A stretch of DNA of 28,960 nucleotides from a virus. Taxonomy: Duplodnaviria > Heunggongvirae > Uroviricota > Caudoviricetes. The notes below the pieces were generated by a model, which did not search any database, was not told where the DNA came from, and saw only the letters and a list, made by a program, of their open reading frames with translations. The DNA is taken from IMG/VR virus record IMGVR_UViG_2693429733_000004, positions 1-28,960 of that record, one strand, 5' to 3'. Shown here in pieces: positions 1,838 through 26,000 of the stretch (the first letter of the stretch is position 1; the number at the start of each line of letters is the position of its first letter). A program made the position numbers and the translations under genes.

Positions 1838-5518
<3,681 letters not shown>

Positions 5519-9047: not shown

Positions 9048-9058
9048 AAGGGGGATGT

Positions 9059-10029: not shown

Positions 10030-10036
10030 GGACGCT

Positions 10037-10777
10037 ATGCCTGTACCAAATCCTACAATGCCGGTGAAAGGTGCCGGGACCACCCTGTGGGTTTATAAGG
10101 GGAGCGGTGACCCTTATGCGAACCCGCTTTCAGACGTTGACTGGTCGCGTCTGGCAAAAGTTAAAGACCTGACGCCCGGCGAACTGACCGCTGAGTCCTA
10201 TGACGACAGCTATCTCGATGATGAAGATGCAGACTGGACTGCGACCGGGCAGGGGCAGAAATCTGCCGGAGATACCAGCTTCACGCTGGCGTGGATGCCC
10301 GGAGAGCAGGGGCAGCAGGCGCTGCTGGCGTGGTTTAATGAAGGTGATACCCGTGCCTATAAAATCCGCTTCCCGAACGGCACGGTCGATGTGTTCCGTG
10401 GCTGGGTCAGCAGTATCGGTAAGGCGGTGACGGCGAAGGAGGTGATTACCCGCACGGTGAAGGTCACCAATGTGGGACGTCCGTCGATGGCAGAAGATCG
10501 CAGCACGGTGACGGCGACGACCGGCATGACGGTGACACCCGCCAGTGCTTCCGTAGTGAAAGGGCAGAGCACCACGCTGACCGTGGCATTCCAGCCGGAT
10601 GGCGCAACCGACAAGAGCTTCCGTGCGGTGTCTGCGGATAAAACAAAAGCCACCGTGTCGGTCAGTGGTATGACCATCACCGTGAAAGGTGTTGCTGCAG
10701 GCAAGGTCAACATTCCGGTCGTATCTGGTAATGGTGAGTTTGCTGCGGTTGCAGAAATCAACGTCACCGCCAGTTAA
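10037..10777 (+). CDS. V: Major tail tube protein gpV (246 aa) with C-terminal Ig-like domain, copy A
   Basis: GAGGA SD then ATG 10037 (the ORF-track start 10007 overlaps U); [33 protein letters not shown]…. Confidence 0.9.
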
Positions 10778-10792
10778 TCCGGAGAGTCAGCG

Positions 10793-11215
10793 ATGTTCCT
10801 GAAAACCGAATCATTTGAACATAACGGTGTGACCGTCACGCTTTCTGAACTGTCAGCCCTGCAGCGTATTGAGCATCTCGACCTGATGAAACGGCAGGCA
10901 GAACAGGCGGAGTCAGACAGCAACCGGAAGTTTACTGTGGAAGACGCCATCAGAACCGGCGCTTTTGTGGTTGCGATGTCCCTGTGGCATAACCATCCGA
11001 AGAAGACGCAGATGCCGTCCATGAATGAAGCCGTTAAACAGATTGAGCAGGAAGTGCTTACCACCTGGCCCACAGAGGCAATTTCTCATGCTGAAAACGT
11101 GGTGTACCGGCTGTCCGGTATGTATGAGTTTGTGGTGAATGATGCTCCTGAACAGGCAGAGGACGCCGGGCCTGCAGAGCCTGTTTCTGCGGGAAAGTGT
11201 TCGACGGTGAGCTGA
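10793..11215 (+). CDS. G: Tail assembly chaperone gpG (140 aa), copy A
   Basis: 140-aa ORF ending …PVSAGKCSTVS; slippery heptamer near its 3' end. Confidence 0.9.
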   Translation: MFLKTESFEHNGVTVTLSELSALQRIEHLDLMKRQAEQAESDSNRKFTVEDAIRTGAFVVAMSLWHNHPKKTQMPSMNEAVKQIEQEVLTTWPTEAISHAENVVYRLSGMYEFVVNDAPEQAEDAGPAEPVSAGKCSTVS

Positions 11216-11631
11216 GTTTTGCCCTGAAACTGGCGCGTGAGATGGGGCGACCCGACTGGCGCGCCATGCTTGCCGGGATGTCATCCACGGAGTATGCCGA
11301 CTGGCACCGCTTTTACAGTACCCATTATTTTCATGATGTTCTGCTGGATATGCACTTTTCCGGGCTGACGTACACCGTGCTCAGCCTGTTTTTCAGCGAT
11401 CCGGAGATGCATCCGCTGGATTTCAGTCTGCTGAACCGGCGCGAGGCTGACGAAGAGCCTGAAGATGATGTGCTGATGCAGAAAGCGGCAGGGCTTGCCG
11501 GAGGTGTCCGCTTTGGCCCGGACGGGAATGAAGTTATCCCCGCTTCCCCGGATGTGGCGGACATGACGGAGGATGACGTAATGCTGATGACAGTATCAGA
11601 AGGGATCGCAGGAGGAGTCCGGTATGGCTGA
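10793..11631 (+). CDS. T: Tail assembly chaperone GT fusion (G plus T via -1 frameshift at 11191..11197), copy A
   Basis: T-frame ORF 11197..11631 has no independent strong start; fused to G as in lambda. Confidence 0.8.
11191..11197 (+). promoter_or_regulatory. Programmed -1 ribosomal frameshift slippery heptamer G GGA AAG (G to GT), copy A
   Basis: GGGAAAG in correct phase of the G frame (…TCT GCG GGA AAG…); downstream T frame is the -1 frame and stays open to 11631. Confidence 0.8.
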
Positions 11632-14185
11632 ACCGGTAGGCGATCTGGTCGTTGATTTGAGTCTGGATGCGGCCAGATTTGACGAGCAGATGGCCAGAGT
11701 CAGGCGTCATTTTTCCGGTACGGAAAGTGATGCGAAAAAAACAGCGGCAGTCGTTGAACAGTCGCTGAGCCGACAGGCGCTGGCTGCACAGAAAGCGGGG
11801 ATTTCCGTCGGGCAGTATAAAGCCGCCATGCGTATGCTGCCTGCACAGTTCACCGACGTGGCCACGCAGCTTGCAGGGGGGCAGAATCCCTGGCTGATCC
11901 TGCTGCAACAGGGTGGTCAGGTTAAGGACTCCTTCGGCGGGATGATCCCCATGTTCAGGGGGCTTGCCGGCGCGATCACCCTGCCGATGGTGGGGGCCAC
12001 CTCGCTGGCGGTGGCGACCGGTGCGCTGGCGTATGCCTGGTATCAGGGCAACTCAACCCTGTCCGATTTCAACAAAACGCTGGTCCTTTCCGGTAATCAG
12101 GCGGGACTGACGGCAGATCGTATGCTGGTCCTGTCCAGAGCCGGGCAGGCGGCAGGGCTGACGTTTAACCAGACCAGCGAGTCACTCAGCGCACTGGTTA
12201 AGGCGGGGGTAAGCGGTGAGGCTCAGATTGCGTCCATCAGCCAGAGTGTGGCGCGTTTCTCCTCTGCATCCGGCGTGGAGGTGGACAAGGTCGCTGAAGC
12301 CTTCGGGAAGCTGACCACAGACCCGACGTCGGGGCTGACGGCGATGGCACGCCAGTTCCATAACGTGACGGCGGAGCAGATTGCGTATGTTGCTCAGTTG
12401 CAGCGTTCCGGCGATGAAGCCGGGGCATTGCAGGCGGCGAACGAGGCCGCAACGAAAGGGTTTGATGACCAGACCCGCCGCCTGAAAGAGAACATGGGCA
12501 CGCTGGAGACCTGGGCAGACAGGACTGCACGTGCATTCAAATCCATGTGGGATGCGGTGCTGGATATTGGTCGTCCTGATACCGCGCAGGAGATGCTGAT
12601 TAAGGCAGAGGCTGCGTTTAAGAAAGCAGACGACATCTGGAATCTGCGCAAGGATGATTATTTCGTTAACGATGAAGCACGGGCGCGTTACTGGGATGAT
12701 CGTGAAAAAAAACGCCTGGAGCGGGATGCAGCCCAAAAGAGGGTAGATCAACAGCGTCAACAGGACAAAAATGCGCAGCAGCAGAGCGATACCGAAGCGT
12801 CACGGCTGAAATATACCGAAGAGGCGCAGAAGGCTTACGAACGGCTGCAGACGCCGCTGGAGAAATATACCGCCCGTCAGGAAGAACTGAACAAGGCACT
12901 GAAAGACGGAAAAATCCTGCAGGCAGATTACAACACGCTGATGGCGGCGGCGAAAAAGGATTATGAAGCGACGCTGAAAAAGCCGAAACAGTCCGGCGTG
13001 AAGGTGTATGCGGGCGATCGTCAGGAAGACAGTGCTCATGCGGCCCTGCTGACGCTTCAGGCAGAACTCCGGACGCTGGAGAAGCATGCCGGAGCGAATG
13101 AGAAAATCAGCCAGCAGCGCCGGGATTTGTGGAAGGCAGAAAGTCAGTTCGCGGTACTGGAGGAGGCGGCACAACGTCGCCAGCTGTCCGCACAGGAGAA
13201 ATCCCTGCTGGCGCATAAAGACGAGACGCTGGAGTACAAACGCCAGCTGGCTGCACTTGGTGACAAGGTTACGTATCAGGAGCACCTGAATGCGCTGGCG
13301 CAGCAGGCGGATAAATTCGCACAGCAGCAACGGGCAAAACGGGCAGCCATTGATGCGAAAAACCGGGGGCTGACTGACCGGCAGGCAGCGCGGGAAGCCA
13401 CGGAACAGCGCCTGAAGGAACAGTATGGCGATAATCCTCTGGCGCTGAATAACGTCATGTCAGAGCAGAAAAAGACCTGGGCGGCTGAAGACCAGCTTCG
13501 CGGGAGCTGGATGGCAGGCCTGAAGTCCGGCTGGAGTGAGTGGGAAGAGAGCGCCACGGACAGTATGTCACAGGTTAAAAGTGCAGCCACGCAGACCTTT
13601 GATGGTATTGCACAGAATATGGCGGCGATGCTGACCGGCAGTGAACAGAACTGGCGCAGCTTCACCCGCTCCGTGCTGTCCATGATGACAGAAATTCTGC
13701 TTAAGCAGGCAATGGTGGGGATTGTCGGGAGTATCGGCAGCGCCATTGGCGGGGCTGTTGGTGGCGGCGCATCCGCGTCAGGTGGTACAGCCATTCAGGC
13801 CGCTGCGGCGAAATTCCATTTTGCAACCGGGGGATTTACGGGAACCGGCGGCAAATATGAGCCAGCGGGGATTGTTCACCGTGGTGAATTTGTCTTCACG
13901 AAGGAGGCAACCAGCCGGATTGGCGTGGGGAATCTCTACCGGCTGATGCGCGGCTATGCGGAAGGTGGTTATGTGGGCGGTGCCGGAAGTCCGGCGCAGA
14001 TGCGGCGGGCTGAAGGCATTAATTTTAATCAGAACAATCACGTGGTGATTCAGAACGACGGTACGAATGGTCTGCCAGGTCCACAGATGATGAAGGCCGT
14101 GTATGACATGGCCCGCAAGGGTGCCCGTGATGAAATTCAGACACAGATGCGTGATGGTGGCCTGTTCTCCGGAGGTGGACGATGA
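11624..14185 (+). CDS. H: Tape measure protein gpH (853 aa), copy A
   Basis: 853-aa ORF MAEPVGDLVVDLSLDAARFDEQMARVRRHF… ; lambda gpH length. Confidence 0.95.
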   Translation: MAEPVGDLVVDLSLDAARFDEQMARVRRHFSGTESDAKKTAAVVEQSLSRQALAAQKAGISVGQYKAAMRMLPAQFTDVATQLAGGQNPWLILLQQGGQVKDSFGGMIPMFRGLAGAITLPMVGATSLAVATGALAYAWYQGNSTLSDFNKTLVLSGNQAGLTADRMLVLSRAGQAAGLTFNQTSESLSALVKAGVSGEAQIASISQSVARFSSASGVEVDKVAEAFGKLTTDPTSGLTAMARQFHNVTAEQIAYVAQLQRSGDEAGALQAANEAATKGFDDQTRRLKENMGTLETWADRTARAFKSMWDAVLDIGRPDTAQEMLIKAEAAFKKADDIWNLRKDDYFVNDEARARYWDDREKKRLERDAAQKRVDQQRQQDKNAQQQSDTEASRLKYTEEAQKAYERLQTPLEKYTARQEELNKALKDGKILQADYNTLMAAAKKDYEATLKKPKQSGVKVYAGDRQEDSAHAALLTLQAELRTLEKHAGANEKISQQRRDLWKAESQFAVLEEAAQRRQLSAQEKSLLAHKDETLEYKRQLAALGDKVTYQEHLNALAQQADKFAQQQRAKRAAIDAKNRGLTDRQAAREATEQRLKEQYGDNPLALNNVMSEQKKTWAAEDQLRGSWMAGLKSGWSEWEESATDSMSQVKSAATQTFDGIAQNMAAMLTGSEQNWRSFTRSVLSMMTEILLKQAMVGIVGSIGSAIGGAVGGGASASGGTAIQAAAAKFHFATGGFTGTGGKYEPAGIVHRGEFVFTKEATSRIGVGNLYRLMRGYAEGGYVGGAGSPAQMRRAEGINFNQNNHVVIQNDGTNGLPGPQMMKAVYDMARKGARDEIQTQMRDGGLFSGGGR

Positions 14186-14511
14186 AAACCTTCCGCTGGA
14201 AAGTGAAACCCGGTATGGATGTGGCTTCGGCCCCTTCTGTAAGAAAGGTGCGCTTTGGTGATGGCTATTCCCAGCGAGCGCCTGCCGGGCTGAATGCCAA
14301 CCTGAAAACGTACAGCGTGACGCTTTCTGTCCCCCGTGAGGAGGCCATGGTACTGGAGTCGTTTCTGGAAGAGCACGGGGGCTGGAAAGCCTTTCTGTGG
14401 ACGCCGCCTTATGAGTGGCGGCAGATAAAGGTGACCTGCGCAAAATGGTCGTCGCGGGTCAGTATGCTGCGTGTTGAGTTCAGCGCAGAGTTTGAACAGG
14501 TGGTGAACTGA
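14182..14511 (+). CDS. M: Tail tip protein gpM (109 aa), copy A
   Basis: 109-aa ORF, ATGA overlaps with H stop and L start. Confidence 0.9.
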   Translation: MKTFRWKVKPGMDVASAPSVRKVRFGDGYSQRAPAGLNANLKTYSVTLSVPREEAMVLESFLEEHGGWKAFLWTPPYEWRQIKVTCAKWSSRVSMLRVEFSAEFEQVVN

Positions 14512-15083: not shown

Positions 15084-15160
15084 CATCTCCGGATGACGGG
15101 GGCAGCTGTTATCTCTGGCTCAACCGTGGGCAACCACCCGCAGTTAACCGGCGACGATAA
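15048..15160 (+). pseudogene. 3' remnant of a second FII gene (last ~25 codons) - right side of the L'::FII' joint
   Basis: Reading frame ending at TAA 15158..15160 encodes …TSPDDGGSCYLWLNRGQPPAVNRRR, parallel to the FII C-terminus at 8970..9047, followed by Z copy B at the same spacing. Confidence 0.65.
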
Positions 15161-15174
15161 ACGCAGGGTGAATT

Positions 15175-15750
15175 ATGGCGATAAAAGGGCTTGATCAGGC
15201 GATTGACAATCTGAGCCGGGTTCGTAAAAACGCCATTCCGGCTGCTTCTGCAATGACCATTAACCGCGTGGCCACAACGGCGATTAATCAGTCTTCGTCA
15301 CAGGTTGCCCGGGAAACCAGGGTGAGACGGAAACTGGTAAAGGAACGGTCCAGACTGAAACGGGCGACGGTCAGAAATCCGAATGCCAGAATTATCGTTA
15401 ACCGCGGTGATCTCCCTGTGATTAAGCTGGGGATCAGAATGCTGGGGCGTCGTCCGAACAGCATACTCAAAGCCGGTCAGCATCGTTATCAGCGGGCATT
15501 TATCCAGCGATTAAATAATGGGCGCTGGCATGTTATGCAACGTCTTCCCCAGGCCAGATATGAGGAGGGCAATGACGACAAGGGAAGGAAAAAGCGTAAT
15601 CGCCTTCCCATTCAGGTGGTGAAAATCCCGATGGCGGCCCCACTGAAACAGGCATTTGATGAGAATGTTGACCGTATCCGGCGTGAACGCCTGCCTAAAG
15701 AACTGGCATACGCGCTGAAACAACAACTGAGGATTGCGATAAAACGATGA
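15175..15750 (+). CDS. Z: Tail completion protein gpZ paralog (191 aa), tail module copy B
   Basis: MAIKGLDQAIDNLSRVRKNAIPAASAMTINRVATTAINQSSSQVARE… ; ~70% aa identity to copy A by eye. Confidence 0.85.
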   Translation: MAIKGLDQAIDNLSRVRKNAIPAASAMTINRVATTAINQSSSQVARETRVRRKLVKERSRLKRATVRNPNARIIVNRGDLPVIKLGIRMLGRRPNSILKAGQHRYQRAFIQRLNNGRWHVMQRLPQARYEEGNDDKGRKKRNRLPIQVVKIPMAAPLKQAFDENVDRIRRERLPKELAYALKQQLRIAIKR

Positions 15751-16142
15751 AACACACTGACATTCGTGCCGCAGTGCTGGATGCACTCGAGCAGCATGAA
15801 CACGGGGCGACGCTGTTTGATGGTCGCCCCGTTGTTTTTGACGAAGAGGATTTTCCTGCGATCGCGGTTTATCTGACGGATGCAGAGTATACCGGTGAAG
15901 AGCTGGATGCAGATACCTGGCGGGCCACACTGCATATTGAGGTGTTTTTACCGGCACAGGTACCTGATTCGGAGCTCGATCAGTGGATGGAAAGCCGGAT
16001 TTATCCGGCGATGACTGCGATCCCTGCACTGGCAGGACTGATTACCACGATGGTTACGCAGGGCTATGAGTATCGTCGTGATGACGATATGGCGTTATGG
16101 AGCTCTGCGGATCTGACTTATTCCATTACATACGAGATGTGA
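15747..16142 (+). CDS. U: Tail terminator gpU paralog (131 aa), copy B
   Basis: [44 protein letters not shown]…. Confidence 0.85.
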
Positions 16143-16149
16143 GGACGAT

Positions 16150-16902
16150 ATGGCAACACCAAATCCCCTGGAGCCGGTAAAAGGTGCCGGTACCACTCTG
16201 TGGGTTTACAACGGCAAGGCTGATGCTTATGCAAACCCGTTGTCAGACGATGACTGGCAGCGACTGGCTAAGGTGAAGGATCTGACGCCGGGCGAGATGA
16301 CGGCTGAATCCTATGATGATAACTACCTGGATGATGAAGACGCGGACTGGAGCGCGACCGGGCAGGGGCAGAAATCTGCAGGTGATACCAGTTTTACGCT
16401 GGCCTGGAAACCGGGAGAGGAAGGCCAGAAAGGGCTTATAGGCTGGTTTGAAAGCGGCGATGTCCGGGCCTATAAAATCCGTTTTCCGAATGGCACGGTG
16501 GATGTGTTTCGTGGCTGGGTCAGCAGTATCGGTAAGGCCGTGACGGCGAAAGAAGTGATCACCCGCACGGTGAAAGTCACTAACGTGGGTAAACCTTCTG
16601 TAGCGGAAGAACGCAGCAAAATTACGCCGGTCAGTGCGATTAAGGTGACGCCGACATCCGGTACGGTGGCAAAAGGGAAAACAACCACCCTGACGGTTTC
16701 TTTTGAGCCGGAAAGTGCAACCGACAAGACGTTCAGAGCGGTTTCCGCCGATCCGTCGAAAGCCACCATTAGTGTGAAAGATATGACAATTACGGTAAAC
16801 GGCGTGGCGACAGGTAAGGTGCAGATCCCTGTGGTGAGCGGAAATGGTCAGTTCGCCGCAGTGGCTGAAGTCACCGTTACTGAAGCGGGCGCTGCAGGGT
16901 AA
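16150..16902 (+). CDS. V: Major tail tube protein gpV paralog (250 aa) with Ig-like C-terminal domain, copy B
   Basis: [49 protein letters not shown]…. Confidence 0.85.
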
Positions 16903-16915
16903 ACGGAGGTAATAC

Positions 16916-17347
16916 ATGTTTCTGAAAACAGAACAATTTGAATATAACGGTGTGTCTGTCACGCTTTCCGAATTGTCTGCGCTGCAGCGTATCGAGCATC
17001 TTGCCCTCCTGAAACGGCGTGCAGAACAGGCAGAATCCAGCGGCAACCTGCAGGTAAGCGTGGAAGATCTCGTCAGAACCGGCGCGTTTCTGGTGGCGAT
17101 GTCCCTGTGGCATAACCATCCACAGAAAACGCAGTCACCGTCAATGAATGAGGCCGTGATGAAGATAGAGCAGGAAGTGCTCACCACCTGGCCTGCCGAT
17201 GCCATTGCCCGGGCGGAAGACGTGGTGTTGTGCCTGTCCGGGATGATCGAAGCTGTTCGTCCGGATACTGATATTACTGAAGTGGCGAAAAATAACACGC
17301 TGACTGATGATGATTTTTCTGCGGGAAAGTCTTCGACGGCGAGCTGA
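16916..17347 (+). CDS. G: Tail assembly chaperone gpG paralog (143 aa), copy B
   Basis: MFLKTEQFEYNGVSVTLSELSALQRIEHL… ; ends …SAGKSSTAS. Confidence 0.85.
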   Translation: MFLKTEQFEYNGVSVTLSELSALQRIEHLALLKRRAEQAESSGNLQVSVEDLVRTGAFLVAMSLWHNHPQKTQSPSMNEAVMKIEQEVLTTWPADAIARAEDVVLCLSGMIEAVRPDTDITEVAKNNTLTDDDFSAGKSSTAS

Positions 17348-17787
17348 ACTTTGCCCTCAGACTGGCGCGTGAGATGGGGAGACCCGACTGGCGCGCCATG
17401 CTTGCCGGGATGACATCCACCGAATATGCCGACTGGCACCGTTTTTACCGCACGCATTATTTTCAGGATACCCAGCTGGATATGCATTTTTCCGGGCTGA
17501 CGTACGCTGTACTCAGCCTGTTTTTTTGCGATCCGGATATGCATCCCTCTGATTTCAGTCTGCTTGTCCCCCGGCATGAGGAAGAGCAGGTGGAGAGGCC
17601 GGATGAGGACAAAATGCTGATGCAGAAAGCGGCAGGACTTGCCGGAGGCGTCCGGTTCGGTGGGGACGGAGGGCGCGATATTTTATCGTCTGCGGATGTG
17701 GCGGATGTCATGGTGGATGATGCCGCATTAATGATGGCTTCAGCGGGGATTCCGGGAGGTGTGAGATATGTCCCAGCCGGTTGGTGA
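16916..17787 (+). CDS. T: GT fusion chaperone (via -1 frameshift), copy B
   Basis: T-frame ORF to 17787 overlapping H copy B start; same arrangement as copy A. Confidence 0.75.
17323..17329 (+). promoter_or_regulatory. -1 frameshift slippery heptamer G GGA AAG, copy B
   Basis: GGGAAAG in phase with the G copy B frame; -1 frame open to 17787. Confidence 0.75.
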
Positions 17788-20341
17788 TCTTGTTATTGAC
17801 CTGAGTCTGGATGCTGTCCGTTTCGATGAGCAGATGAGCCGGGTAAGGCGTCATTTTTCAGGTCTGGATACCGACGCCAGAAAAACCGCCAGTGCTGTTG
17901 AACAGGGCCTGAGCCGCCAGGCGCTGGCTGCACAAAAAGCCGGGATTTCCGTCGGGCAGTATAAAGCGGCCATGCGAACCCTGCCCGCACAGTTTACGGA
18001 TATCGCCACGCAGCTTGCCGGTGGTCAGAATCCCTGGCTGATCCTGCTGCAACAGGGCGGTCAGGTTAAGGACTCCTTCGGCGGGATGATCCCCATGTTC
18101 AGGGGGCTTGCCGATGCGATCACCCTGCCGATGGTCGGGGTCACCTCGCTGGCGGTGGCGACAGGTGCACTGGTGTACGCCTGGTACCAGGGAGATTCCA
18201 CGCTTTCAGCGTTTAATAAAACCCTGGTTCTTTCCGGTAATCAGTCCGGACTGACTGCCGATCGTATGCTGACTCTCTCAAGAGCCGGGCAGGCAGCAGG
18301 GCTGACGTTTAACCAGGCGAGAGAGTCACTGGCAGCCCTGGTGAATGCCGGTGTGCGTGGTGGTGAACAGTTTGATGCCATCAACCAGAGTGTCGCGCGT
18401 TTTGCGTCTGCATCCGGTGTGGAGGTGGATAAAGTCGCTGAAGCCTTCGGGAAGCTGACCACTGACCCGACGTCGGGACTGATGGCGATGGCGCGCCAGT
18501 TCCGTAACGTGACGGCAGAGCAGATTGCGTATGTTGCACAGCTGCAGCGTTCCGGAGACGAGGCCGGGGCATTGCAGGCGGCGAACGATATCGCCACGAA
18601 AGGCTTTGATGAGCAGACCCGTCGCCTGAAAGAAAACATGGGAACACTGGAGACCTGGGCGGATAAAACAGGGAAGGCATTCAAATCGATGTGGGATGCC
18701 ATTCTGGATATCGGTCGTCCGGAATCCTCAGCGGATATGCTCGCCAGTGCGCAGAAGGCATTTGATGAGGCGGATAAAAAATGGCAGTGGTACCAGAGTC
18801 GGAGCCAGCGCCGCGGTAAAACCTCCTCTTTCCGGGCCAACCTTCAGGGCGCATGGGATGACCGGGAAAATGCCCGTCTGGGTCTGGCAGCGGCAACGCT
18901 GCAGTCGGATATGGAAAAAGCCGGTGAACTGGCGGCAAGGGACAGGGCTGAGCGTGAGTCGTCACAGCTGAAGTATACCGGAGAGGCGCAGAAGGCGTAT
19001 GAGCGCCTGCTGACGCCACTGGAGAAATATACCGCCCGGCAGGAAGAGCTGAATAAGGCCCTGAAAGACGGGAAAATCCTGCAGGCGGATTACAACACGC
19101 TGATGGCGTCGGCAAAAAAGGATTATGAGTCGACGCAGAAAAAGCCGTCCGGTGTGAAGGTGTCTGCCGGTGAGCGCCAGGAAGACCAGGCGCATGCAGC
19201 CCTGCTGGCGCTTGAAACTGAGCTCAGGACGCTGGAGAAGCACAGCGGTGCGAATGAAAAAATCAGCCAGCAGCGCCGTGATTTATGGAAAGCGGAAAAT
19301 CAGTATGTGGTCCTGAAAGAGGCCGCCACGAAACGGCAGTTATCTGAGCAGGAAAAATCCCTGCTGGCCCATGAGAAAGAAACGCTGGAGTACAAACGCC
19401 AGCTGGCTGAGCTGGGCGACAAGATTGAACACCAGAAACGGCTGAATGAGCTGGCACAGCAGGCGGCGCGGTTTGAACAGCAGCAGAGCGCGAAGCAGGC
19501 GGCAATCAGCGCAAAAGCCCGCGGACTCACCGACCGTCAGGCGCAGCGGGAGTCGGAAGAGCAGCGCCTTCGTGAGGTGTACGGTGATAATCCGGCTGCG
19601 CTGGCGAAGGCCACATCTGCACTGAAGAACACCTGGTCTGCGGAGGAGCAGCTTCGTGGAAGCTGGATGGCCGGGATGAAGTCCGGCTGGGGCGAGTGGG
19701 CGGAAAGTGCGACGGACAGTTTTTCGCAGGTTAAAAACGCGGCCACGCAGACCTTTGACGGTATTGCACAGAATATGGCAGCGATGCTGATCGGCAGCGA
19801 ACAGAACTGGCGTGGTTTCACCCGTTCTGTGCTGTCCATGCTGACAGAGATTTTTCTGAAGCAGGCGATGGTGGGGATAGTCGGGAGTATCGGCAGCGCC
19901 ATTGGCGGTGCTTTCGGTGGTGGTGCGTCTGCCTCCACGGGGACGGCCATTCAGGCTGCGGCGGCGAACTTCCATTTCGCGACCGGGGGATTTACGGGGA
20001 CGGGGGGTAAATATGAACCTGCGGGGATTGTTCATCGCGGGGAGTTTGTCTTCACGAAGGAGGCGACCAGCCGGATTGGTGTCGGCAATCTGTACCGCCT
20101 GATGCGGGGCTATGCGGAAGGTGGTTATGTCGGCGGTGCCGGAAGTCCGGCGCAGATGCGGCGGGCGGAAGGCATTAATTTTAATCAGAACAATCACGTG
20201 GTGATTCAGAACGACGGCCCCAACGGGCGGGCAGGGCCGCAGCTGATGAAAGCGGTGTATGAGATGGCCCGCAAGGGGGCACAGGATGAACTCCGGCTGC
20301 AGTTGCGTGATGGCGGTATGTTATCAGGGAGCGGTGGATGA
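17768..20341 (+). CDS. H: Tape measure protein gpH paralog (857 aa), copy B
   Basis: MSQPVGDLVIDLSLDAVRFDEQMSRVRRHF… ; collinear with copy A but diverged in central coiled-coil region. Confidence 0.9.
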   Translation: MSQPVGDLVIDLSLDAVRFDEQMSRVRRHFSGLDTDARKTASAVEQGLSRQALAAQKAGISVGQYKAAMRTLPAQFTDIATQLAGGQNPWLILLQQGGQVKDSFGGMIPMFRGLADAITLPMVGVTSLAVATGALVYAWYQGDSTLSAFNKTLVLSGNQSGLTADRMLTLSRAGQAAGLTFNQARESLAALVNAGVRGGEQFDAINQSVARFASASGVEVDKVAEAFGKLTTDPTSGLMAMARQFRNVTAEQIAYVAQLQRSGDEAGALQAANDIATKGFDEQTRRLKENMGTLETWADKTGKAFKSMWDAILDIGRPESSADMLASAQKAFDEADKKWQWYQSRSQRRGKTSSFRANLQGAWDDRENARLGLAAATLQSDMEKAGELAARDRAERESSQLKYTGEAQKAYERLLTPLEKYTARQEELNKALKDGKILQADYNTLMASAKKDYESTQKKPSGVKVSAGERQEDQAHAALLALETELRTLEKHSGANEKISQQRRDLWKAENQYVVLKEAATKRQLSEQEKSLLAHEKETLEYKRQLAELGDKIEHQKRLNELAQQAARFEQQQSAKQAAISAKARGLTDRQAQRESEEQRLREVYGDNPAALAKATSALKNTWSAEEQLRGSWMAGMKSGWGEWAESATDSFSQVKNAATQTFDGIAQNMAAMLIGSEQNWRGFTRSVLSMLTEIFLKQAMVGIVGSIGSAIGGAFGGGASASTGTAIQAAAANFHFATGGFTGTGGKYEPAGIVHRGEFVFTKEATSRIGVGNLYRLMRGYAEGGYVGGAGSPAQMRRAEGINFNQNNHVVIQNDGPNGRAGPQLMKAVYEMARKGAQDELRLQLRDGGMLSGSGG

Positions 20342-20667
20342 AAACCTTTCGCTGGAAAGTGAAGCCGGATATGGAGGTGAACTCGCAGCCATCGGTGCGT
20401 GAAGTGCGTTTTGGTGACGGGTACTCACAGCGTATGGCGGCAGGGCTGAATGCTGACCTGAAAACATACAGGGTGACGCTTTCCGTGACCCGGGAGGAGG
20501 CCCGGCATCTGGAAGCGTTCCTGGCAGAGCACGGTGGCTGGAAGGCATTTTTGTGGAAGCCACCCTATGCATACCGGCAGATAAAGGTGACCTGTGCCGG
20601 GTGGTCTGCGCGGGTCGGGATGTTGCGCGTTGAGTTCAGCGCGGAGTTTAAGCAGGTGGTGAACTGA
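20338..20667 (+). CDS. M: Tail tip protein gpM paralog (109 aa), copy B
   Basis: MKTFRWKVKPDMEVNSQPSVREVRFGDGYSQ…. Confidence 0.9.
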   Translation: MKTFRWKVKPDMEVNSQPSVREVRFGDGYSQRMAAGLNADLKTYRVTLSVTREEARHLEAFLAEHGGWKAFLWKPPYAYRQIKVTCAGWSARVGMLRVEFSAEFKQVVN

Positions 20668-21375: not shown

Positions 21376-22119
21376 ATGACACAGACTGAATCAGCGATTC
21401 TGGCACATGCCCGGCGGTGTGCGCCTGCGGAGTCGTGCGGCTTCGTGATAAGCACGCCGGAGGGGGAGCGGTATATCCCTTGTGTGAATATTTCCGCAGA
21501 GCCGGAGGCGTATTTTCGTATCGCACCGGAAGACTGGCTGCGGGCAGAGATGCAGGGGGAGATTGTGGCACTGGTCCACAGTCATCCCGGTGGGCTGCCC
21601 TGGCTGAGCGAGGCTGACCGGCGGTTGCAGATAAAAAGCGCACTGCCCTGGTGGTTGGTCTGCCGGGGTGACATTCACAAATTCCGCTGTGTGCCACATC
21701 TGACAGGACGGCGCTTTGAGCACGGGGTGACGGACTGTTACACGCTGTTCCGGGATGCTTATCATCTGGCGGGGACTGAAATGCCGGATTTTCATCGCGA
21801 GGATGACTGGTGGCGCAACGGTCAGAACCTTTACCTGGATAATATGGCGGTCACCGGCTTTTACCGGGTGCCCCTGTCCTCTGCACAGGCGGGCGATATT
21901 CTGCTGTGCTGCTTTGGTGCTTCGGTACCGAACCATGCCGCCATTTACTGCGGCAACGGTGAGCTGCTTCACCATCTGCCTGAACAACTGAGTAAACGGG
22001 AGAGGTATTCCGAAAAATGGCAACGACGAACGCATTCAGTCTGGCGTCACCGCCACTGGCACGCATCTGCCTTCACGGGGATTTACAACGATTTGGCCGC
22101 CGCCTCAGCCTGTATGTGA
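21376..22119 (+). CDS. K: Tail tip assembly protein gpK (247-codon ORF; MPN/JAMM domain plus NlpC/P60 domain)
   Basis: ATG 21376 ten nt after L stop; JAMM motif HSHPGGLPWLSEAD (HxHx7Sx2D) and catalytic-type Cys in GVTDCYTLF; overlaps I by ~100 nt as in lambda; the classical 199-aa lambda start corresponds to an Ile codon here. Confidence 0.85.
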   Translation: MTQTESAILAHARRCAPAESCGFVISTPEGERYIPCVNISAEPEAYFRIAPEDWLRAEMQGEIVALVHSHPGGLPWLSEADRRLQIKSALPWWLVCRGDIHKFRCVPHLTGRRFEHGVTDCYTLFRDAYHLAGTEMPDFHREDDWWRNGQNLYLDNMAVTGFYRVPLSSAQAGDILLCCFGASVPNHAAIYCGNGELLHHLPEQLSKRERYSEKWQRRTHSVWRHRHWHASAFTGIYNDLAAASACM

Positions 22120-22697
22120 ACACGGCAGCGGAAGCCATTCGCGCCCTGTCGATGCAGATGCCGGGCTTTCGCCGTCAGATGAACGAAGGCTGGTACCAGA
22201 TACGTATTGCCGGTTATGACACGGCACCGGAGGCGGTGTACGCCCGTCTTCACGAACAGCTGGGTGAGGGAACGGTCATCCACATTGTGCCGCGACTGGC
22301 CGGGGCCGGAAAGGGTGGACTGCAGATTGTGCTGGGGGCGGCAGCCATCGTGGGCTCTTTCTTCACTGCCGGGGCATCAATGGCGTTATGGGGTTCAGCC
22401 CTGGCAGCCGGTGGTTTTTCTGCCACCACGATGCTGTTTTCACTTGGAGCCAGCATGATTCTGGGCGGTGTGGCCCAGATGCTGGCCCCGAAGGCAAAAA
22501 CACCGGATTACCGCGCAACGGATAACGGCAGACAGAACACGTACTTTTCCTCACTGGATAACATGATTGCCCAGGGGAACCCGATGCCGGTGCCTTACGG
22601 GGAAATGCTGGTTGGCTCCCGCCGTATATCCCAGGACATCAGCACCCGTGATGAAGGCGGGGGCGGAAAGGTCGTGGTTATCGGGCGGCAGGGGTAA
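22017..22697 (+). CDS. I: Tail tip assembly protein gpI (226 aa)
   Basis: MATTNAFSLASPPLARICLHGDLQRFGRRLSLYVNTAAEAIRAL… ; Gly/Ala-rich hydrophobic central stretch. Confidence 0.85.
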   Translation: MATTNAFSLASPPLARICLHGDLQRFGRRLSLYVNTAAEAIRALSMQMPGFRRQMNEGWYQIRIAGYDTAPEAVYARLHEQLGEGTVIHIVPRLAGAGKGGLQIVLGAAAIVGSFFTAGASMALWGSALAAGGFSATTMLFSLGASMILGGVAQMLAPKAKTPDYRATDNGRQNTYFSSLDNMIAQGNPMPVPYGEMLVGSRRISQDISTRDEGGGGKVVVIGRQG

Positions 22698-22743
22698 AAA
22701 GAATAAAAAAATCCCGCAGTGATCGCGGACAGGAACTGCGGGA
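22695..22743 (-). terminator. Rho-independent terminator on - strand (8-bp stem TCCCGCAG/CTGCGGGA then U-tract)
   Basis: - strand reads tcccgcagttcctgtccgcgatcactgcggga then TTTTTTTATTCTTTTT; on + strand the A-tract precedes the stem, so it is orientation-specific for the - strand. Confidence 0.5.
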
Positions 22744-22801
22744 GAGTTACGAAGATTAAGTGTAAGGAATTATTCTTATATCACGACAAAAAAATTAACG
22801 C
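22700..22801 (-). ncRNA. Candidate ~100-nt small RNA in the I-J intergenic insert (promoter to terminator, no ORF)
   Basis: Bounded by predicted sigma70 promoter (22808..22835) and terminator (22695..22743) on - strand; no ATG in the transcript; AU-rich body; not matched to any known sRNA. Confidence 0.3.
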
Positions 22802-22807
22802 AGAGAA

Positions 22808-22835
22808 ATTATACGCGCCACAGTCAGTTTGTGAA
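22808..22835 (-). promoter_or_regulatory. Predicted sigma70 promoter on - strand: -35 TTCACA, 16-bp spacer, -10 TATAAT
   Basis: - strand sequence ttcaca-aactgactgtggcgcg-tataat-ttctctG; perfect -10 hexamer, 5/6 match at -35. Confidence 0.4.
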
Positions 22836-22895
22836 AATGTGAAGATATTCAGAATTTTTATGCCATTACCGGTTTTAACCAACAGGATTATCGGT

Positions 22896-22943
22896 GGGCA
22901 TGAAAGAAAACCCCGGTATCTGCTGATACCGGGGTTTCTCTTT
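22896..22943. terminator. Strong hairpin (13-bp perfect stem AAACCCCGGTATC/GATACCGGGGTTT, 4-nt loop) flanked by T-rich runs on both strands; likely bidirectional terminator
   Basis: Stem 22908..22920 / 22925..22937; followed by TTTCTCTTT on + strand and TTTTCTTTC on - strand. Confidence 0.5.
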
Positions 22944-23040
22944 AGCATGGCAGAAATGTGTTTCATGCTTTTCGGGCGAAGGATATCCGACTTCTGTACG
23001 GAATGGCAAGTGGCGGTTAATTTATTCAGGGGAAGGCTGT

Positions 23041-26000
23041 ATGGGAAAAGGTGGCGGTAAGGCACACACGCCTCGTGAGGCGAAGGATAATCTCAAATCC
23101 ACGCAGATGATGAGCGTGATTGATGCGATTGGTGAGGGACCGATAGAAGGTCCGGTGAAGGGACTGCAGAGTATCCTGGTGAACAAAACCCCGCTGACGG
23201 ACACGGACGGTAATCCCGTGATACACGGTGTGACGGCGGTCTGACGCGCCGGGGAGCAGGAGCAGACACCACCGGAAGGCTTTGAGTCCTCCGGTGCTGA
23301 AACCGGACTGGGCGTGGAAGTGACGAAGGCAAAACCGGTGACGCGCACCATTACGTCCGCGAACATTGACCGCCTGCGGGTTACCTTCGGGGTGCAGTCA
23401 CTGGTGCAGACCACGTCAAAGGGTGACCGAAACCCGACATCCGTCCGCCTGCTGATTCAGTTACAGCGTAACGGTAACTGGGTGACAGAAAAGGATGTCA
23501 CCATTAACGGCAAGACCACCTCGCAGTTTCTGGCGTCGGTGATTCTGGATAATCTGCCTCCCCGTCCTTTTAACATCCGGATGGTCCGGGAGACAGCGGA
23601 CAGCACCACGGACCAGCTGCAGAATAAGACGCTGTGGTCGTCATACACCGAAATCATCGATGTGAAACAGTGCTACCCGAACACGGCCATTGTGGGGCTG
23701 CAGGTGGATGCGGAGCAGTTCGGCGGCCAGCAGATGACGGTGAACTACCATATCCGCGGTCGCATCATCCAGGTGCCGTCAAACTATGACCCGGAAAAAC
23801 GCACGTACAGTGGTATCTGGGACGGCAGCCTGAAACCGGCATACAGCAACAATCCGGCCTGGTGTCTGTGGGACATGCTGACTCACCCGCGCTACGGCAT
23901 GGGAAAACGTCTGGGGGCGGCGGATGTGGACAAGTGGGCGCTGTATGCCATCGGGCAGTACTGCGACCAGACGGTCCCGGATGGTTTCGGGGAGACCGAG
24001 CCGCGGATGACCTTCAATGCGTACCTGGCACAACAGCGTAAGGCATGGGACGTGCTCAGTGATTTCTGCTCGGCGATGCGCTGTATGCCGGTATGGAACG
24101 GCCAGACGCTGACGTTTGTTCAGGACCGCCCGTCGGATGTGGTGTGGCCGTACACCAACAGCGATGTGGTGGTGGATGATAACGGCGTGGGTTTCCGCTA
24201 CAGCTTCAGTGCCCTGAAGGACCGGCACACGGCGGTGGAGGTGAATTATACCGACCCGCAGAACGGCTGGCAGACCTCCACGGAACTGGTGGAAGACCCG
24301 GAAGCCATACTGCGCTACGGACGCAACCTGCTGAAGATGGACGCGTTCGGCTGTACCAGCCGCGGTCAGGCCCACCGTGCCGGACTGTGGGTGATAAAGA
24401 CCGAACTGCTGGAAACGCAGACGGTGGATTTCACGCTCGGGTCTCAGGGGCTGCGGCACACACCCGGTGACATCATTGAAATCTGTGATAACGACTATGC
24501 CGGGACCCTGACCGGCGGACGTGTCCTGTCCATTGATGCTGCCACCCGCACTCTGACGCTGGACCGTGAAGTGACACTTCCGGAGACCGGTGCCGCCACG
24601 GTGAACCTGATTAACGGCAGCGGTAAGCCGGTGAGTGTGGACATCACCGAACACCCCGCGCCGGACCGGATACAGGTCAGTACCCTGCCTGATGGTGTGG
24701 AGACATACGGGGTGTGGGGACTCTCCCTGCCGTCACTGCGCCGTCGCCTGTTCCGCTGTGTCTCCGTCCGGGAAAACACGGACGGCACCTTTGCCATCAC
24801 GGCGGTGCAGCACGTACTGGAAAAAGAAGCCATCGTGGATAACGGTGCCCGCTTTGAGCCGCAGTCAGGTTCCCTGAACAGCGTCATCCCACCGGCAGTG
24901 CAGCACCTGACGGCCAGTATCTGGCGCAGGCGAAATGGGACACGCCGCGGGTGGTGAAGGGTGTGCGCTTCAGTCTGCGCCTGACCAGTGGTAAGGGAAC
25001 GGATGCCAGACTGGTGACCACCGCCATCACCGCAGACACGGAGCACCGTTTCAGCGGCCTGCCGCTCGGGGAATACACCCTGACGGTGCGGGCGATAAAC
25101 AGCTATGGCCAGCAGGGTGAACCTGCCACCACCACCTTCCGGATTGCCGCACCGGCAGCACCGTCGCGGATTGAGCTGACGCCGGGCTATTTTCAGATAA
25201 CCGCAACGCCGCATCTTGCCGTTTATGACCCGACGGTACAGTTTGAGTTCTGGTTCTCGGAAAAGCGGATTGCGGATATCAGGCAGGTTGAAACCAGCGC
25301 CCGCTATCTTGGCACGGCGCTGTACTGGATAGCCGCCAGTATCAATATCAAACCGGGCCATGATTATTATTTTTACGTTCGCAGTGTGAACACCGTTGGC
25401 AAATCGGCATTCGTGGAGGCTGTCGGTCGGGCGAGCGATGATGCGGAAGGTTACCTGGATTTTTTCAAAGGAGAGATAGGGAAAACACATCTGGCTCAGG
25501 AGCTGTGGACGCAGATTGATAACGGTCAGCTTGCGCCTGACCTGGCTGAAATCAGGACGTCCATTACGGATGTCAGCAATGAAATCACGCAGACTGTCAA
25601 TAAGAAACTGAAAGACCAGAGTGCGGCAATCCAGCAGATACAGAAGGTTCAGGTTGATACAAATAATAATCTGAACAGCATGTGGGCTGTGAAGCTGCAA
25701 CAGATGAAGGACGGACGCCTTTATATTGCGGGTATCGGTGCCGGTATTGAGAATACGCCAGCAGGAATGCAGAGTCAGGTGCTGCTGGCGGCAGACAGGA
25801 TTGCGATGATTAATCCTGCGAATGGCAACACAAAGCCGATGTTTGTTGGTCAGGGCGATCAGATATTCATGAACGACGTGTTCCTGAAACGCCTGACGGC
25901 TCCCACCATTACCAGCGGCGGTAATCCTCCGGCATTTTCCCTGACACCGGACGGAAAACTGACCGCTAAAAATGCAGATATCAGTGGCAGTGTGAATGCG

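What the first reader, a model, noticed from the sequence alone, without database searches (positions are those of the whole stretch)
22698..23040. AT-rich 343-bp insert between I and J that has the signals of an antisense small-RNA transcription unit
Lambda has only a short I-J spacer (about 60 bp by my recollection); here there is a 343-bp AT-rich insert. On the - strand it has a near-consensus sigma70 promoter (TTCACA, 16 bp, TATAAT; 22835..22808), then ~100 nt without any ATG, then a hairpin with a U7-rich tract (22743..22695). A second strong 13-bp hairpin (22908..22937) insulates the unit on the other side. This is the layout of a prophage-encoded sRNA moron. Prophage sRNAs and anti-sRNAs have been described in enterobacterial lambdoid prophages, but I cannot assign this one to a known family from memory. 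The two protein ORFs predicted here (113 aa on +, 94 aa on -) run through the hairpins and look spurious.
Basis: inference. Interest (0 to 1): 0.65.

Follow-up and report, generated by a model that had tools for sequence, protein, structure and literature searches.

The report
Divergent allele of prophage sRNA PasB
The AT-rich stretch between the phage tail genes I and J carries, on the opposite strand, a small regulatory RNA gene of the already described PasB/EcOnc22 family of prophage sRNAs, here as a common sequence variant that the published survey method would not have picked up.

Summary
A 343-bp spacer (GC 0.42, flanks about 0.6) separates I (stop 22697) from J (ATG 23041). Lambda has 60 bp there. 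The - strand carries TTCACA-16-TATAAT (22835..22808), a 97-nt stretch without ATG, and a terminator hairpin with U7 (22743..22705).

This unit is not new in kind. It is an allele of PasB, an 83-nt Hfq-dependent sRNA of EPEC E2348/69 mapped to the same I-J spacer and strand by Northern blot and RIL-seq (Pearl Mizrahi 2021). It probably also matches EcOnc22-24 of EHEC Sakai (Tree 2014). A covariance model built without window-type alleles hits 22801..22705 end to end (70 bits, E 9e-11). The promoter block is 91% identical and the terminator stem is identical, but the RNA body is only 66% identical.

A word-28 BLAST, as used in the 2026 PasB census, finds nothing in the window. Yet this allele occurs in 800 of 5,426 complete E. 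coli genomes and is never annotated.

The 13-bp hairpin belongs to a separate, nearly invariant 175-bp module. It looks like the local version of the I-J hairpin that lambda also has, not an insulator specific to the sRNA. The two ORFs are spurious.

Verdict: a real sRNA gene and a new member of a known family. Interest is modest.

The parts
22116..22697 (+). Tail assembly gene I (3' neighbour of the sRNA terminator)
   Evidence: ORF ending at 22697. The start at 22116 is derived by register from the ATCC 25922 CDS, annotated 'tail assembly protein', 582 nt.
22705..22801 (-). PasB-family sRNA gene. The predicted primary transcript is 97 nt (+1 = G22801). By homology to the 5' end reported for E2348/69 PasB, the mature RNA would be 22786..22705 (82 nt).
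   Evidence: CM R1, built from 20 non-window-type alleles including validated PasB, hits 22801..22705 end to end at 70.2 bits, E 9.3e-11. Identity to PasB is 72-74%. The Northern probe of PMC8550237 matches 22710-22729 at 20 of 23 positions. The stretch contains no ATG.
22705..22743 (-). Rho-independent terminator: stem CCCGCAGU/ACUGCGGG with a 14-nt loop, then A + U7 (22711..22705). It ends 8 nt from the I stop codon.
   Evidence: RNAfold and terminator scan. The 7-bp stem CCCGCAG/CUGCGGG is essentially invariant and the loop varies across 49 alleles. It is the only consensus structure found by RNAalifold.
22744..22777 (-). Single-stranded body with the family's conserved linear motifs: an A-rich (ARN)3 run AAGAAUAAU, the anti-SD-like AAUUCCUU, and the conserved core UUAAUCUUC. 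The core is the likely seed, just upstream of the terminator.
   Evidence: Alignment of 49 alleles. The longest ARN run has median 3 against 0.8 in shuffles. The region is unpaired in the MFE and centroid folds. Zhu et al. 2026 propose the PasB seed in this position.
22808..22835 (-). Sigma-70 promoter: -35 TTCACA (22835..22830), 16-bp spacer, -10 TATAAT (22813..22808)
   Evidence: 11 of 12 positions. The promoter plus upstream block is 90.8% identical to the E2348/69 PasB locus. It is conserved in most alleles.
22835..22861 (.). Nearly invariant block upstream of -35 (AAATGTGAAGATATTCAGAATTTTTAT). It is A/T-rich, contains a CRP-like dyad TGTGA-N6-TCAGA (22838..22853, centre about -44.5), and marks the recombination boundary between the left and right modules.
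   Evidence: It is conserved in all 14 BLAST-derived loci, even where -35/-10 differ. BLAST matches to other spacer types stop at about 22861-22864. The dyad alone is weak evidence: 4 such sites in the window against 0.97 expected.
22862..23040 (.). 'Type B' right-hand module: a non-coding stretch that carries the 13-bp hairpin and the J ribosome-binding site
   Evidence: Present in 1,446 of 5,426 E. coli genomes, at >=99% identity in 1,442 records, never annotated, and with no diverged relatives. It is combined either with the window-type sRNA or with PasB-2. No Pfam hit; only E>0.09 PHROG noise.
22908..22937 (.). Perfect 13-bp hairpin (loop TGCT) with an A-tract before it and T-rich tracts after it on both strands. 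It is terminator-like by eye but was not called by the scan tool.
   Evidence: z -4.4 and -7.0; not listed. Hairpin plus T-run analogues occur before J in lambda and in type A spacers, where the scan does call a + strand terminator.
22980..23009 (-). Weak promoter-like site TTGCCA-18-TATCCT. Together with the hairpin it could define a second roughly 75-nt - strand transcript (about 22973..22897). This is unsupported.
   Evidence: 9 of 12 positions, within chance expectation. The fold of 22975..22895 (-) gives -32.2 kcal/mol. No comparative or experimental support was found.
23041..23244 (+). Start of tail tip gene J, here truncated by a nonsense codon (TGG->TGA at 23242-23244)
   Evidence: alignment with the intact J of ATCC 25922.

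Best explanation
Window 22705..22801 (- strand) is a gene for a small, Hfq-dependent, trans-acting base-pairing RNA of the PasB/EcOnc22 family. It forms a self-contained cassette of about 165 bp, inserted directly after the stop codon of tail gene I and transcribed against the phage late operon.

Shown here:
- The cassette has its own near-consensus sigma-70 promoter, a conserved upstream block and an intrinsic terminator with U7.
- It is homologous over its whole length to experimentally validated alleles.

Inferred:
- In a lysogen, including this defective prophage, host RNA polymerase transcribes a primary RNA of about 97 nt. This RNA may be trimmed to about 82 nt.
- Hfq binds the 3' U-tail together with the terminator hairpin, and also the A-rich ARN stretch.
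- The unpaired region around UUAAUCUUC, possibly with the anti-Shine-Dalgarno-like AAUUCCUU, pairs with host and prophage mRNAs.
- The body is only about 66% identical to PasB, so the target set of this allele probably differs in part.

The 13-bp hairpin belongs to a separate module next to J. It is most simply the local version of the I-J intercistronic hairpin/terminator that lambda also has.
For: Position and strand:
- PasB of E2348/69 maps to NC_011601 1466343..1466261 (-), 83 nt, between E2348C_1436 and E2348C_1437. RefSeq shows these genes are I and J, and PasB ends 6 nt after the I stop.

Experiments on homologous alleles:
- PasB was shown by a Northern band of the expected size and by Hfq-dependent stability. 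It has 37 RIL-seq interactions, is the second RNA in about 99-100% of its chimeras, and has a U-tract of 7 (PMC8550237 main text and Tables S2, S5, S6).
- EHEC Sakai EcOnc22/23/24 are Hfq-CRAC peaks with a roughly 85-nt Northern band, destabilised in delta-hfq. They lie in the I-J spacers of Sp15, Sp14 and Sp11 on the anti-late strand.

Homology:
- A CM trained without window-type alleles hits 22801..22705 at 70.2 bits, E 9e-11.
- The promoter block is 90.8% identical and the RNA 72-74% identical.
- Mosaic intermediates link the alleles.

Anatomy:
- The promoter matches 11 of 12 positions.
- The terminator is confirmed.
- ARN runs are enriched.
- The conserved core is unpaired.

Maintenance:
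- The RNA gene is >=99% identical in 613 records and present in 800 of 5,426 genomes.
- It is intact here although J is a pseudogene.
Against: - There are no expression data for this allele, and none could be obtained with these tools.
- The predicted +1 (22801) and the coverage-based 5' end of PasB (equivalent to 22786) disagree by 15 nt.
- The terminator stem shows no covariation because it is invariant. Structure support therefore rests on the contrast between a conserved stem and a variable loop.
- No target motif was reported for PasB: it is absent from Table S7 of PMC8550237. My scan of start regions in the window was no better than shuffled seeds.
- The EcOnc22-24 assignment depends on a coordinate shift of about +128 to +140 between Sakai genome versions. 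I could anchor that shift only at 1.94 Mb.
Confidence: 0.85

Rival explanations
1. The - strand RNA acts mainly in cis. It is perfectly complementary to the I-J intercistronic part of the late mRNA. During lytic growth it would pair with that mRNA, causing RNase III cleavage or altered J expression. Its convergent promoter might also interfere with late transcription. Trans targets would be secondary.
For: The gene lies inside the late operon on the opposite strand in every locus examined. Its position immediately after the I stop is fixed.
Against: - The RNA does not overlap the I coding sequence or the J ribosome-binding site, which is more than 230 nt away in the window.
- PasB has 37 trans interactions in RIL-seq in a lysogen without late transcription.
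- The gene is kept in defective prophages such as this one, where J is already dead.
- Allelic diversification of the body has no cis rationale, because any sequence is self-complementary to its own antisense.
Confidence: 0.1
2. The spacer signals serve the + strand only, for example an intercistronic terminator, a processing site or translational control of J. On this view the - strand promoter and terminator of this particular allele are inactive relics.
For: A hairpin plus T-run on the + strand precedes J in lambda, in type A spacers and in type B spacers. In type A it shows a compensatory C-G to T-A change. This shows that a + strand element does exist in the spacer.
Against: - That + strand element is the right-hand module, not the sRNA cassette.
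- The cassette's terminator is preceded by A7 on the + strand and so works only on the - strand.
- The window's promoter is closer to consensus (11/12, TATAAT) than the Sakai allele that gives a detectable RNA.
- The allele is >=99% identical in 613 records.
Confidence: 0.04
3. The spacer encodes a small protein: the 113-aa + strand ORF, the 94-aa - strand ORF, or the 44-aa - strand ORF.
For: Open frames exist at 22719..23060 (+), 22781..23065 (-) and 22875..23009 (-).
Against: - There are no Pfam hits, and the PHROG hits are only E 0.095-0.22.
- PGAP annotates no CDS here in more than 1,400 genomes.
- Stop-free stretches change frame and length between alleles, including between the window and L003, which share the right module.
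- The ORFs run through the terminator and the 13-bp hairpin.
Confidence: 0.01

Closest known systems
PasB sRNA of EPEC O127:H6 E2348/69 (Pearl Mizrahi et al., Sci Adv 2021, PMC8550237) and its common variant PasB-2 (Zhu, Shabalina & Storz, bioRxiv 2026)
   Same: - Same place and strand: directly after the I stop, antisense to the late operon of a lambdoid prophage.
- Same promoter and upstream block (90.8% identical).
- Identical terminator stem and U7.
- Same order of motifs: 5' GCGUUA, U-run, A-rich stretch, AAYUCC, AAUCUUC core.
- PasB-2 loci (L003, L004) even share the window's right-hand module with the 13-bp hairpin.
   Different: - The RNA body upstream of the terminator is only 66% identical, and the whole RNA 72-74%.
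- The terminator loop is 5 nt longer.
- The longest shared exact word is 25 nt, so blastn with word size 28 (the published census setting) gives no hit.
- E2348/69 has a 240-bp spacer with a different right module.
- Expression, Hfq dependence and targets are shown for PasB only.
EcOnc22/EcOnc23/EcOnc24 of EHEC O157:H7 Sakai (Tree et al., Mol Cell 2014, PMC4104026, Table S2)
   Same: - They are Hfq-crosslinked RNAs with a roughly 85-nt Northern band, destabilised without Hfq.
- They lie in the I-J spacers of prophages Sp15, Sp14 and Sp11 on the strand opposite the late genes.
- The only promoter-terminator unit there is a 91-nt PasB-family allele, identical to L014.
   Different: - The allele differs: its -35 and -10 are weaker (no TTCACA; -10 is AATAAT) and its body differs.
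- It is combined with a type A right module.
- The link between EcOnc22-24 and PasB is my inference from coordinates. It needs a shift of +128 to +140 between genome versions. I did not find it stated in either paper.
AgvB/AsxR anti-sRNAs (RF02702, RF02703) and other sRNAs at the PR' moron site of lambdoid prophages
   Same: Prophage-encoded, Hfq-binding, short, terminator-ended sRNAs that sit at a fixed 'moron' position and have variable 5' regions and conserved 3' regions.
   Different: Different locus (downstream of PR'/Q, not I-J) and no sequence relation. No Rfam family reaches its gathering score anywhere in the window. They are 51-60 nt and act as sponges of GcvB and FnrS. Nothing of that kind is known for PasB.
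Lambda I-J intercistronic region
   Same: It has a hairpin followed by a T-run on the + strand shortly before the J ribosome-binding site (AAACCGCC/GGCGGTTT + TGTCATTT). This is the counterpart of the window's 13-bp hairpin and of the type A hairpin.
   Different: It is only 60 bp long and has no - strand promoter, terminator or sRNA cassette. CM R1 finds nothing in the lambda locus.

Membership tests
PasB sRNA family (prophage I-J spacer sRNA) | Encoded in the spacer between tail genes I and J of a lambdoid prophage, on the strand opposite the late operon, ending just after the I stop | tested here: met
   Window: the I stop is at 22697 and the U-tract ends at 22705. E2348/69: the I stop is at 1466255 and the PasB 3' end at 1466261.
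PasB sRNA family (prophage I-J spacer sRNA) | Sequence and structure homology to validated PasB over the whole RNA | tested here: met
   CM R1, built from 20 alleles that exclude the window type, hits 22801..22705 over model positions 1-96 at 70.2 bits, E 9.3e-11. The next hit scores 16.8 bits. Pairwise identity is 72-74%.
PasB sRNA family (prophage I-J spacer sRNA) | Own promoter with the family's conserved upstream block | tested here: met
   TTCACA-16-TATAAT. The block and promoter are 90.8% identical to E2348/69.
PasB sRNA family (prophage I-J spacer sRNA) | 3' stem-loop plus poly-U (intrinsic terminator and Hfq-binding module) | tested here: met
   Stem CCCGCAG/CUGCGGG plus U7.
PasB sRNA family (prophage I-J spacer sRNA) | Operational definition of the 2026 census: blastn hit to the 83-nt E2348/69 query with word size 28 and query coverage above 75% | tested here: not met
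   Word 28 gives no hit. Word 11 gives 25 nt only, 30% coverage. The window RNA is therefore a diverged allele, not 'PasB' or 'PasB-2' as catalogued.
PasB sRNA family (prophage I-J spacer sRNA) | Expressed as a discrete RNA of about 80-100 nt | not testable with these tools
   Shown only for E2348/69 and probably for Sakai EcOnc22.
PasB sRNA family (prophage I-J spacer sRNA) | Hfq binding and Hfq-dependent stability, with trans base-pairing to mRNAs | not testable with these tools
   Only sequence proxies are available: U7 tail, ARN run AAGAAUAAU, and an unpaired conserved core.
AgvB/AsxR anti-sRNA family and any other Rfam sRNA family | Match to the family covariance model at gathering score | tested here: not met
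   There are 0 hits in the whole window at gathering thresholds. The best sub-threshold hits in 22600-23100 are 15-20 bits against thresholds of 39-315.
Protein-coding moron | A conserved open reading frame with a family match or kept frame | tested here: not met
   No CDS is annotated in RefSeq.

The most novel reading that the evidence does not exclude
The I-J junction of lambdoid prophages may be a dedicated, recombining sRNA cassette site. A fixed promoter/regulatory block and a fixed terminator/Hfq module would frame a rapidly diversifying targeting region.

- At least four allele classes exist, and some IMG/VR contigs carry two or three units in tandem.
- On this reading, different E. 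coli lineages carry PasB-type sRNAs with different regulons under common control.
- The window allele, typical of ExPEC-type strains, would be a functionally distinct regulator that has not been catalogued.
- A further step is not excluded: the invariant type B module next to it might encode a second small - strand RNA (about 22973..22897).
Probability: 0.3. Interest if true: 0.5.

Novelty: new member of a known kind. Interest (0 to 1): 0.3.

Why it matters
- **Annotation gap.** The spacer is unannotated in every RefSeq genome I looked at, and Rfam has no model for it. A common Hfq-type sRNA gene is therefore invisible in standard annotation. A match to the spacer occurs in 1,662 of 5,426 complete E. 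coli genomes, and the window allele in 800.
- **Undercounted family.** Searching by the published method finds 956 genomes and cannot find the window type. The published picture of PasB as the least diverse Pas sRNA therefore probably undercounts the family by nearly half.
- **Unrecorded link.** It also misses the link to the Hfq-bound EcOnc22-24 RNAs found in EHEC in 2014.
- **Possible biology.** If the alleles differ in targets, lineage-specific prophage remnants would wire different post-transcriptional regulons into ExPEC, EPEC and EHEC.
- **For this window alone**, the result is a correct annotation rather than a discovery.

Tried and rejected
- **Rfam.** Nothing at gathering thresholds over the whole window, and only terminator-like noise at E<=10 over the spacer. 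The same is true for the validated PasB and Sakai loci, so the absence is uninformative.
- **AgvB/AsxR lead from memory.** Rejected: they sit at a different locus (the PR' moron site) and there is no model hit.
- **Protein-coding reading.** Rejected.
- **Consensus structure and covariation in the RNA body.** RNAalifold finds only the invariant terminator stem, so no covariation test is possible.
- **In-window target search.** I ran RNAduplex of the unpaired region against 67 start regions. The best energy was -24.4 kcal/mol against -23.5 +/- 2.4 for shuffled seeds, so there is no signal.
- **CRP-site idea for the conserved block.** The dyad matches 9 of 10 positions, but its centre is at -44.5, which is not a canonical class I or class II position. 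Four such sites occur in the window against 0.97 expected. I keep it only as a weak lead.
- **Literature search by sequence strings.** The two hairpins gave no paper. A search for I/J-spacer sRNAs by gene names gave none.
- **EcOnc54 of Sakai Sp6.** Checked as a possible further I-J sRNA. It lies between L and an antirepressor insertion and is unrelated.
- **Spread beyond Escherichia.** One scan of 185,579 species genomes with the 18-base block found only E. albertii. Two tiny contigs labelled Streptomyces and Parendozoicomonas also matched and are probably contamination. The remaining hits lack the PasB-like terminator and number about what chance predicts (my estimate).
- **Second - strand unit in the type B module.** The promoter is only 9 of 12, within chance, and the module has no sequence variation to test. 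It remains unsupported.
Full report
**The observation**

The I ORF ends at 22697 and J starts at 23041, leaving a 343-bp spacer. Its GC content is 0.39-0.43, against 0.57-0.63 on both sides. In RefSeq the identical spacer of E. coli ATCC 25922 is plain intergenic DNA between 'tail assembly protein' and 'gpJ'.

The features on the - strand are these:
- The promoter scan finds TTCACA-16-TATAAT at 22835..22808, matching 11 of 12 positions.
- The predicted start is G22801.
- The 97 nt down to 22705 contain no ATG.
- These 97 nt end in a hairpin (22743..22712) followed by U7 at 22711..22705.
- The second hairpin is a perfect 13-bp stem, 22908-22920 with 22925-22937. Its folding z-scores are -4.4 on the + strand and -7.0 on the - strand.

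**What it is**

A literature search led to the Pas sRNAs of enteropathogenic E. coli E2348/69. Table S6 of Pearl Mizrahi et al. 2021 (PMC8550237) gives these details for PasB:
- location NC_011601.1, - strand, 1466343..1466261, 83 nt;
- prophage PP6, between E2348C_1436 and E2348C_1437;
- Northern probe AATCCCGCAGTGATCGCGGAGCT.

Fetching that locus shows that the two genes are tail assembly protein I (ending at 1466255) and gpJ (starting at 1466496). PasB therefore lies directly after the I stop, on the strand opposite the late operon. The first 20 bases of the probe equal window 22710-22729.

An alignment of the two spacers shows three things:
- a shared terminator;
- a promoter and upstream block that are 90.8% identical;
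- an RNA that is 72-74% identical overall and 66% identical upstream of the terminator.

For an independent test, I built a covariance model from 20 family members that excluded all window-type alleles. It hits window 22801..22705 over its full length at 70.2 bits, E 9e-11. The next hit in the window scores 16.8 bits. The unit is therefore a member of the PasB family by position, strand, promoter, terminator and overall homology.

**Experimental status of the family**

For PasB itself the 2021 paper reports:
- a Northern band of the expected size and Hfq-dependent stability;
- higher expression in the non-activating condition;
- 37 RIL-seq interactions, with PasB as the second RNA in about 99-100% of its chimeras (258 chimeric fragments in the activating condition, 1,820 in the non-activating one);
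- a U-tract of 7.

Table S2 of the same paper lists pasB with log2 fold changes of -6.8 and -2.4.

Tree et al. 2014 (PMC4104026, Table S2) list Hfq-CRAC peaks EcOnc22, EcOnc23 and EcOnc24 in Sakai prophages Sp15, Sp14 and Sp11. EcOnc22 gives a roughly 85-nt Northern band and is destabilised in delta-hfq. In the current Sakai record these coordinates fall in the three identical 240-bp I-J spacers, on the anti-late strand.

The table uses an older genome version. An AgvB landmark shows a shift of about +140 at 1.94 Mb, and the whole-genome length difference is +128. Either shift puts the peaks inside the only promoter-terminator unit of that spacer, a 91-nt PasB-family allele. I rate this identification as probable. 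I did not find it stated in the papers I read.

Rfam 15 has no model for any of these RNAs. The window, the E2348/69 locus and the Sakai locus all give no hit.

**The family and where the window allele stands**

BLAST against complete E. coli genomes, phage records and IMG/VR gave 134 loci with 49 distinct RNA sequences.

All of them share:
- the 5' GCGUUA;
- a U-run;
- an A-rich stretch that forms ARN repeats (median run of 3 against 0.8 in shuffles);
- AAYUCC, which resembles an anti-Shine-Dalgarno sequence;
- the core UUAAUCUUC;
- the stem CCCGCAG/CUGCGGG with a variable loop;
- the U-tail.

The terminator is the only consensus structure, and because its stem is invariant it offers no covariation. 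The conserved core is unpaired in the folds. It lies where Zhu et al. 2026 propose the PasB seed.

The alleles fall into at least four classes and are visibly mosaic. The window's exact RNA is the most frequent one in my sample, at 26 of 134 loci.

In 5,426 complete E. coli genomes the counts are:
- The 83-nt PasB query finds 956 genomes under megablast. Most are PasB-2 at 98.8% identity.
- The window RNA finds 800 genomes, with 613 records at >=99% identity.

The two queries share no exact word longer than 25 nt, so neither query can find the other allele. The 2026 census used blastn with word size 28 and coverage above 75%. It describes PasB variants as differing by 'a few nucleotides'. Reproducing those settings against the window gives no hit. 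The window allele was therefore very probably not counted.

Outside E. coli, the family block turned up only in E. albertii among 185,579 species genomes, apart from two probable contaminant contigs.

**Architecture of the spacer**

Similarity to other spacer types stops at about 22861-22864. The spacer therefore consists of two modules.

The left module is a cassette of about 165 bp holding the terminator, RNA body, promoter and a nearly invariant upstream block (22835-22861).

The right module comes in several types. The window has 'type B' (22862-23040), with these properties:
- It occurs in 1,446 genomes and is >=99% identical in 1,442 records.
- It has no diverged relatives and is never annotated.
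- It is joined either to the window-type RNA or to PasB-2.

The other types ('type A') are about 80 bp. They carry a hairpin CAGGCAYCC...GGRTGCCTG followed by TTGTTTTT. The scan calls this a + strand terminator, and it shows a compensatory C-G to T-A change. Lambda's 60-bp spacer likewise has AAACCGCC/GGCGGTTT followed by TGTCATTT.

A hairpin plus T-run just before J is therefore a general feature of this junction, with or without the sRNA. The window's 13-bp hairpin is most simply its type B version. That role is not shown, and the scan tool did not call it a terminator on either strand.

A weak - strand promoter-like site at 23009..22980 could, together with this hairpin, define a second small RNA. 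It matches only 9 of 12 positions, which is within chance, and nothing else supports it.

**How it most likely works**

Shown here: a complete, conserved transcription unit homologous to alleles that are Hfq-bound, Hfq-stabilised and engaged in many trans RNA-RNA contacts.

Inferred:
- In the lysogen the host polymerase makes a 97-nt RNA. This RNA may be trimmed to about 82 nt, because the coverage-based 5' end of PasB corresponds to 22786.
- Hfq binds the U-tail and terminator hairpin, and the ARN stretch.
- The unpaired AAUCUUC region, perhaps with AAUUCCUU, pairs with mRNAs.
- Because the body differs from PasB, the target set probably differs.

The conserved block upstream of -35 suggests common regulation. 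It contains a CRP-like dyad (22838-22853). That fits loosely with the higher PasB levels in the non-activating condition reported in the paper. However, the spacing (centre at -44.5) is not canonical, and such dyads are not rare in the window. I treat it only as a lead.

**Rival readings**

A purely cis-antisense role against the late I-J mRNA cannot be excluded as an additional function. It does not explain the trans interactome, the retention of the gene in dead prophages, or the diversification of the RNA body.

A protein-coding reading is rejected. There are no Pfam matches, only E>0.09 PHROG noise, no annotated CDS, and the frames are not conserved.

**Context**

The prophage is defective. 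J carries TGG->TGA at codon 68 (23242-23244), with further frame breaks downstream. The window also holds two tail-shaft modules in tandem. The sRNA cassette is nevertheless identical to that of hundreds of other genomes. This agrees with the published remark that PasB often lies outside intact prophages.

**Verdict**

Three results go beyond the published work:
- the window carries a second major allele that is common, unannotated and missed by the published census method;
- there is a probable, unrecorded link between PasB and EcOnc22-24;
- the I-J spacer has a modular cassette structure.

I rate it a new member of a known kind, with interest 0.3.

Noticed in passing
window 23242-23244 and about 24951-24957: J is a pseudogene. 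TGG->TGA at codon 68 relative to the intact J of ATCC 25922, and the reading frame breaks again near 24957. The prophage is defective although the sRNA cassette is intact.
   Followed up: partly
window 8973-14223 versus 15086-20379: Two tail-shaft modules (major tail, G/T-like, tape measure of 853 and 857 aa) lie in tandem at 75-81% identity. This suggests a recombinant or fused prophage.
   Followed up: partly
L178 (lambda NC_001416 15445-15504): Lambda's own 60-bp I-J spacer contains a hairpin AAACCGCC/GGCGGTTT followed by TGTCATTT on the + strand. A terminator-like hairpin just before J is common to lambda and to all PasB-bearing spacer types.
   Followed up: partly
L100 4418-4980; L059 about 9819-10150; L114 about 4022-4350; L134 about 7294-7620 (IMG/VR contigs): Some I-J spacers carry tandem units. 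L100 has three hits to the PasB model (104, 96 and 31 bits). L059, L114 and L134 have a second unit with the same upstream block but an unrelated RNA body and terminator.
   Followed up: partly
window 22838-22853: A CRP-like dyad TGTGAagatatTCAGA lies in the nearly invariant block upstream of the -35, with its centre at about -44.5. Four sites of this quality occur in the window against 0.97 expected, so the evidence is weak.
   Followed up: partly
window 22980-23009 (-) with 22897-22973 (-): A weak promoter-like site TTGCCA-18-TATCCT, followed by a small hairpin (22944-22969) and the 13-bp hairpin with a U-rich tail, could give a second RNA of about 75 nt on the - strand. No support was found beyond the fold energy.
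   Followed up: partly
L155 about 3962-4100; L085 about 4716-5030: Natural variants of the type B module. L155 has exactly the 13-bp hairpin deleted, between short GAAA repeats. L085 has an insertion sequence with a transposase-like ORF inside the module.
   Followed up: no
L179/L180/L181 (Sakai Sp15, Sp14, Sp11 I-J spacers): Hfq-CRAC sRNAs EcOnc22/23/24 of Tree et al. 2014 map to these spacers on the anti-late strand. After the shift between genome versions they coincide with a PasB-family allele. I did not find this link in the PasB papers.
   Followed up: partly
L034 (contig labelled Streptomyces flavalbus, 3.4 kb) and L027 (Parendozoicomonas haliclonae, 460 bp): These tiny contigs in unrelated genome assemblies carry this E. 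coli prophage spacer. They are most likely assembly contamination.
   Followed up: no
window 324-406 (+): A weak hit of the PasB model (16.8 bits, E 0.25) lies inside a 141-aa - strand ORF. It is probably chance.
   Followed up: no
L183 (Sakai Sp6, 1576553-1578208): In Sp6 a transcriptional regulator and an antirepressor gene are inserted between the tail genes L and K. EcOnc54 lies there. It is unrelated to the I-J sRNA.
   Followed up: no
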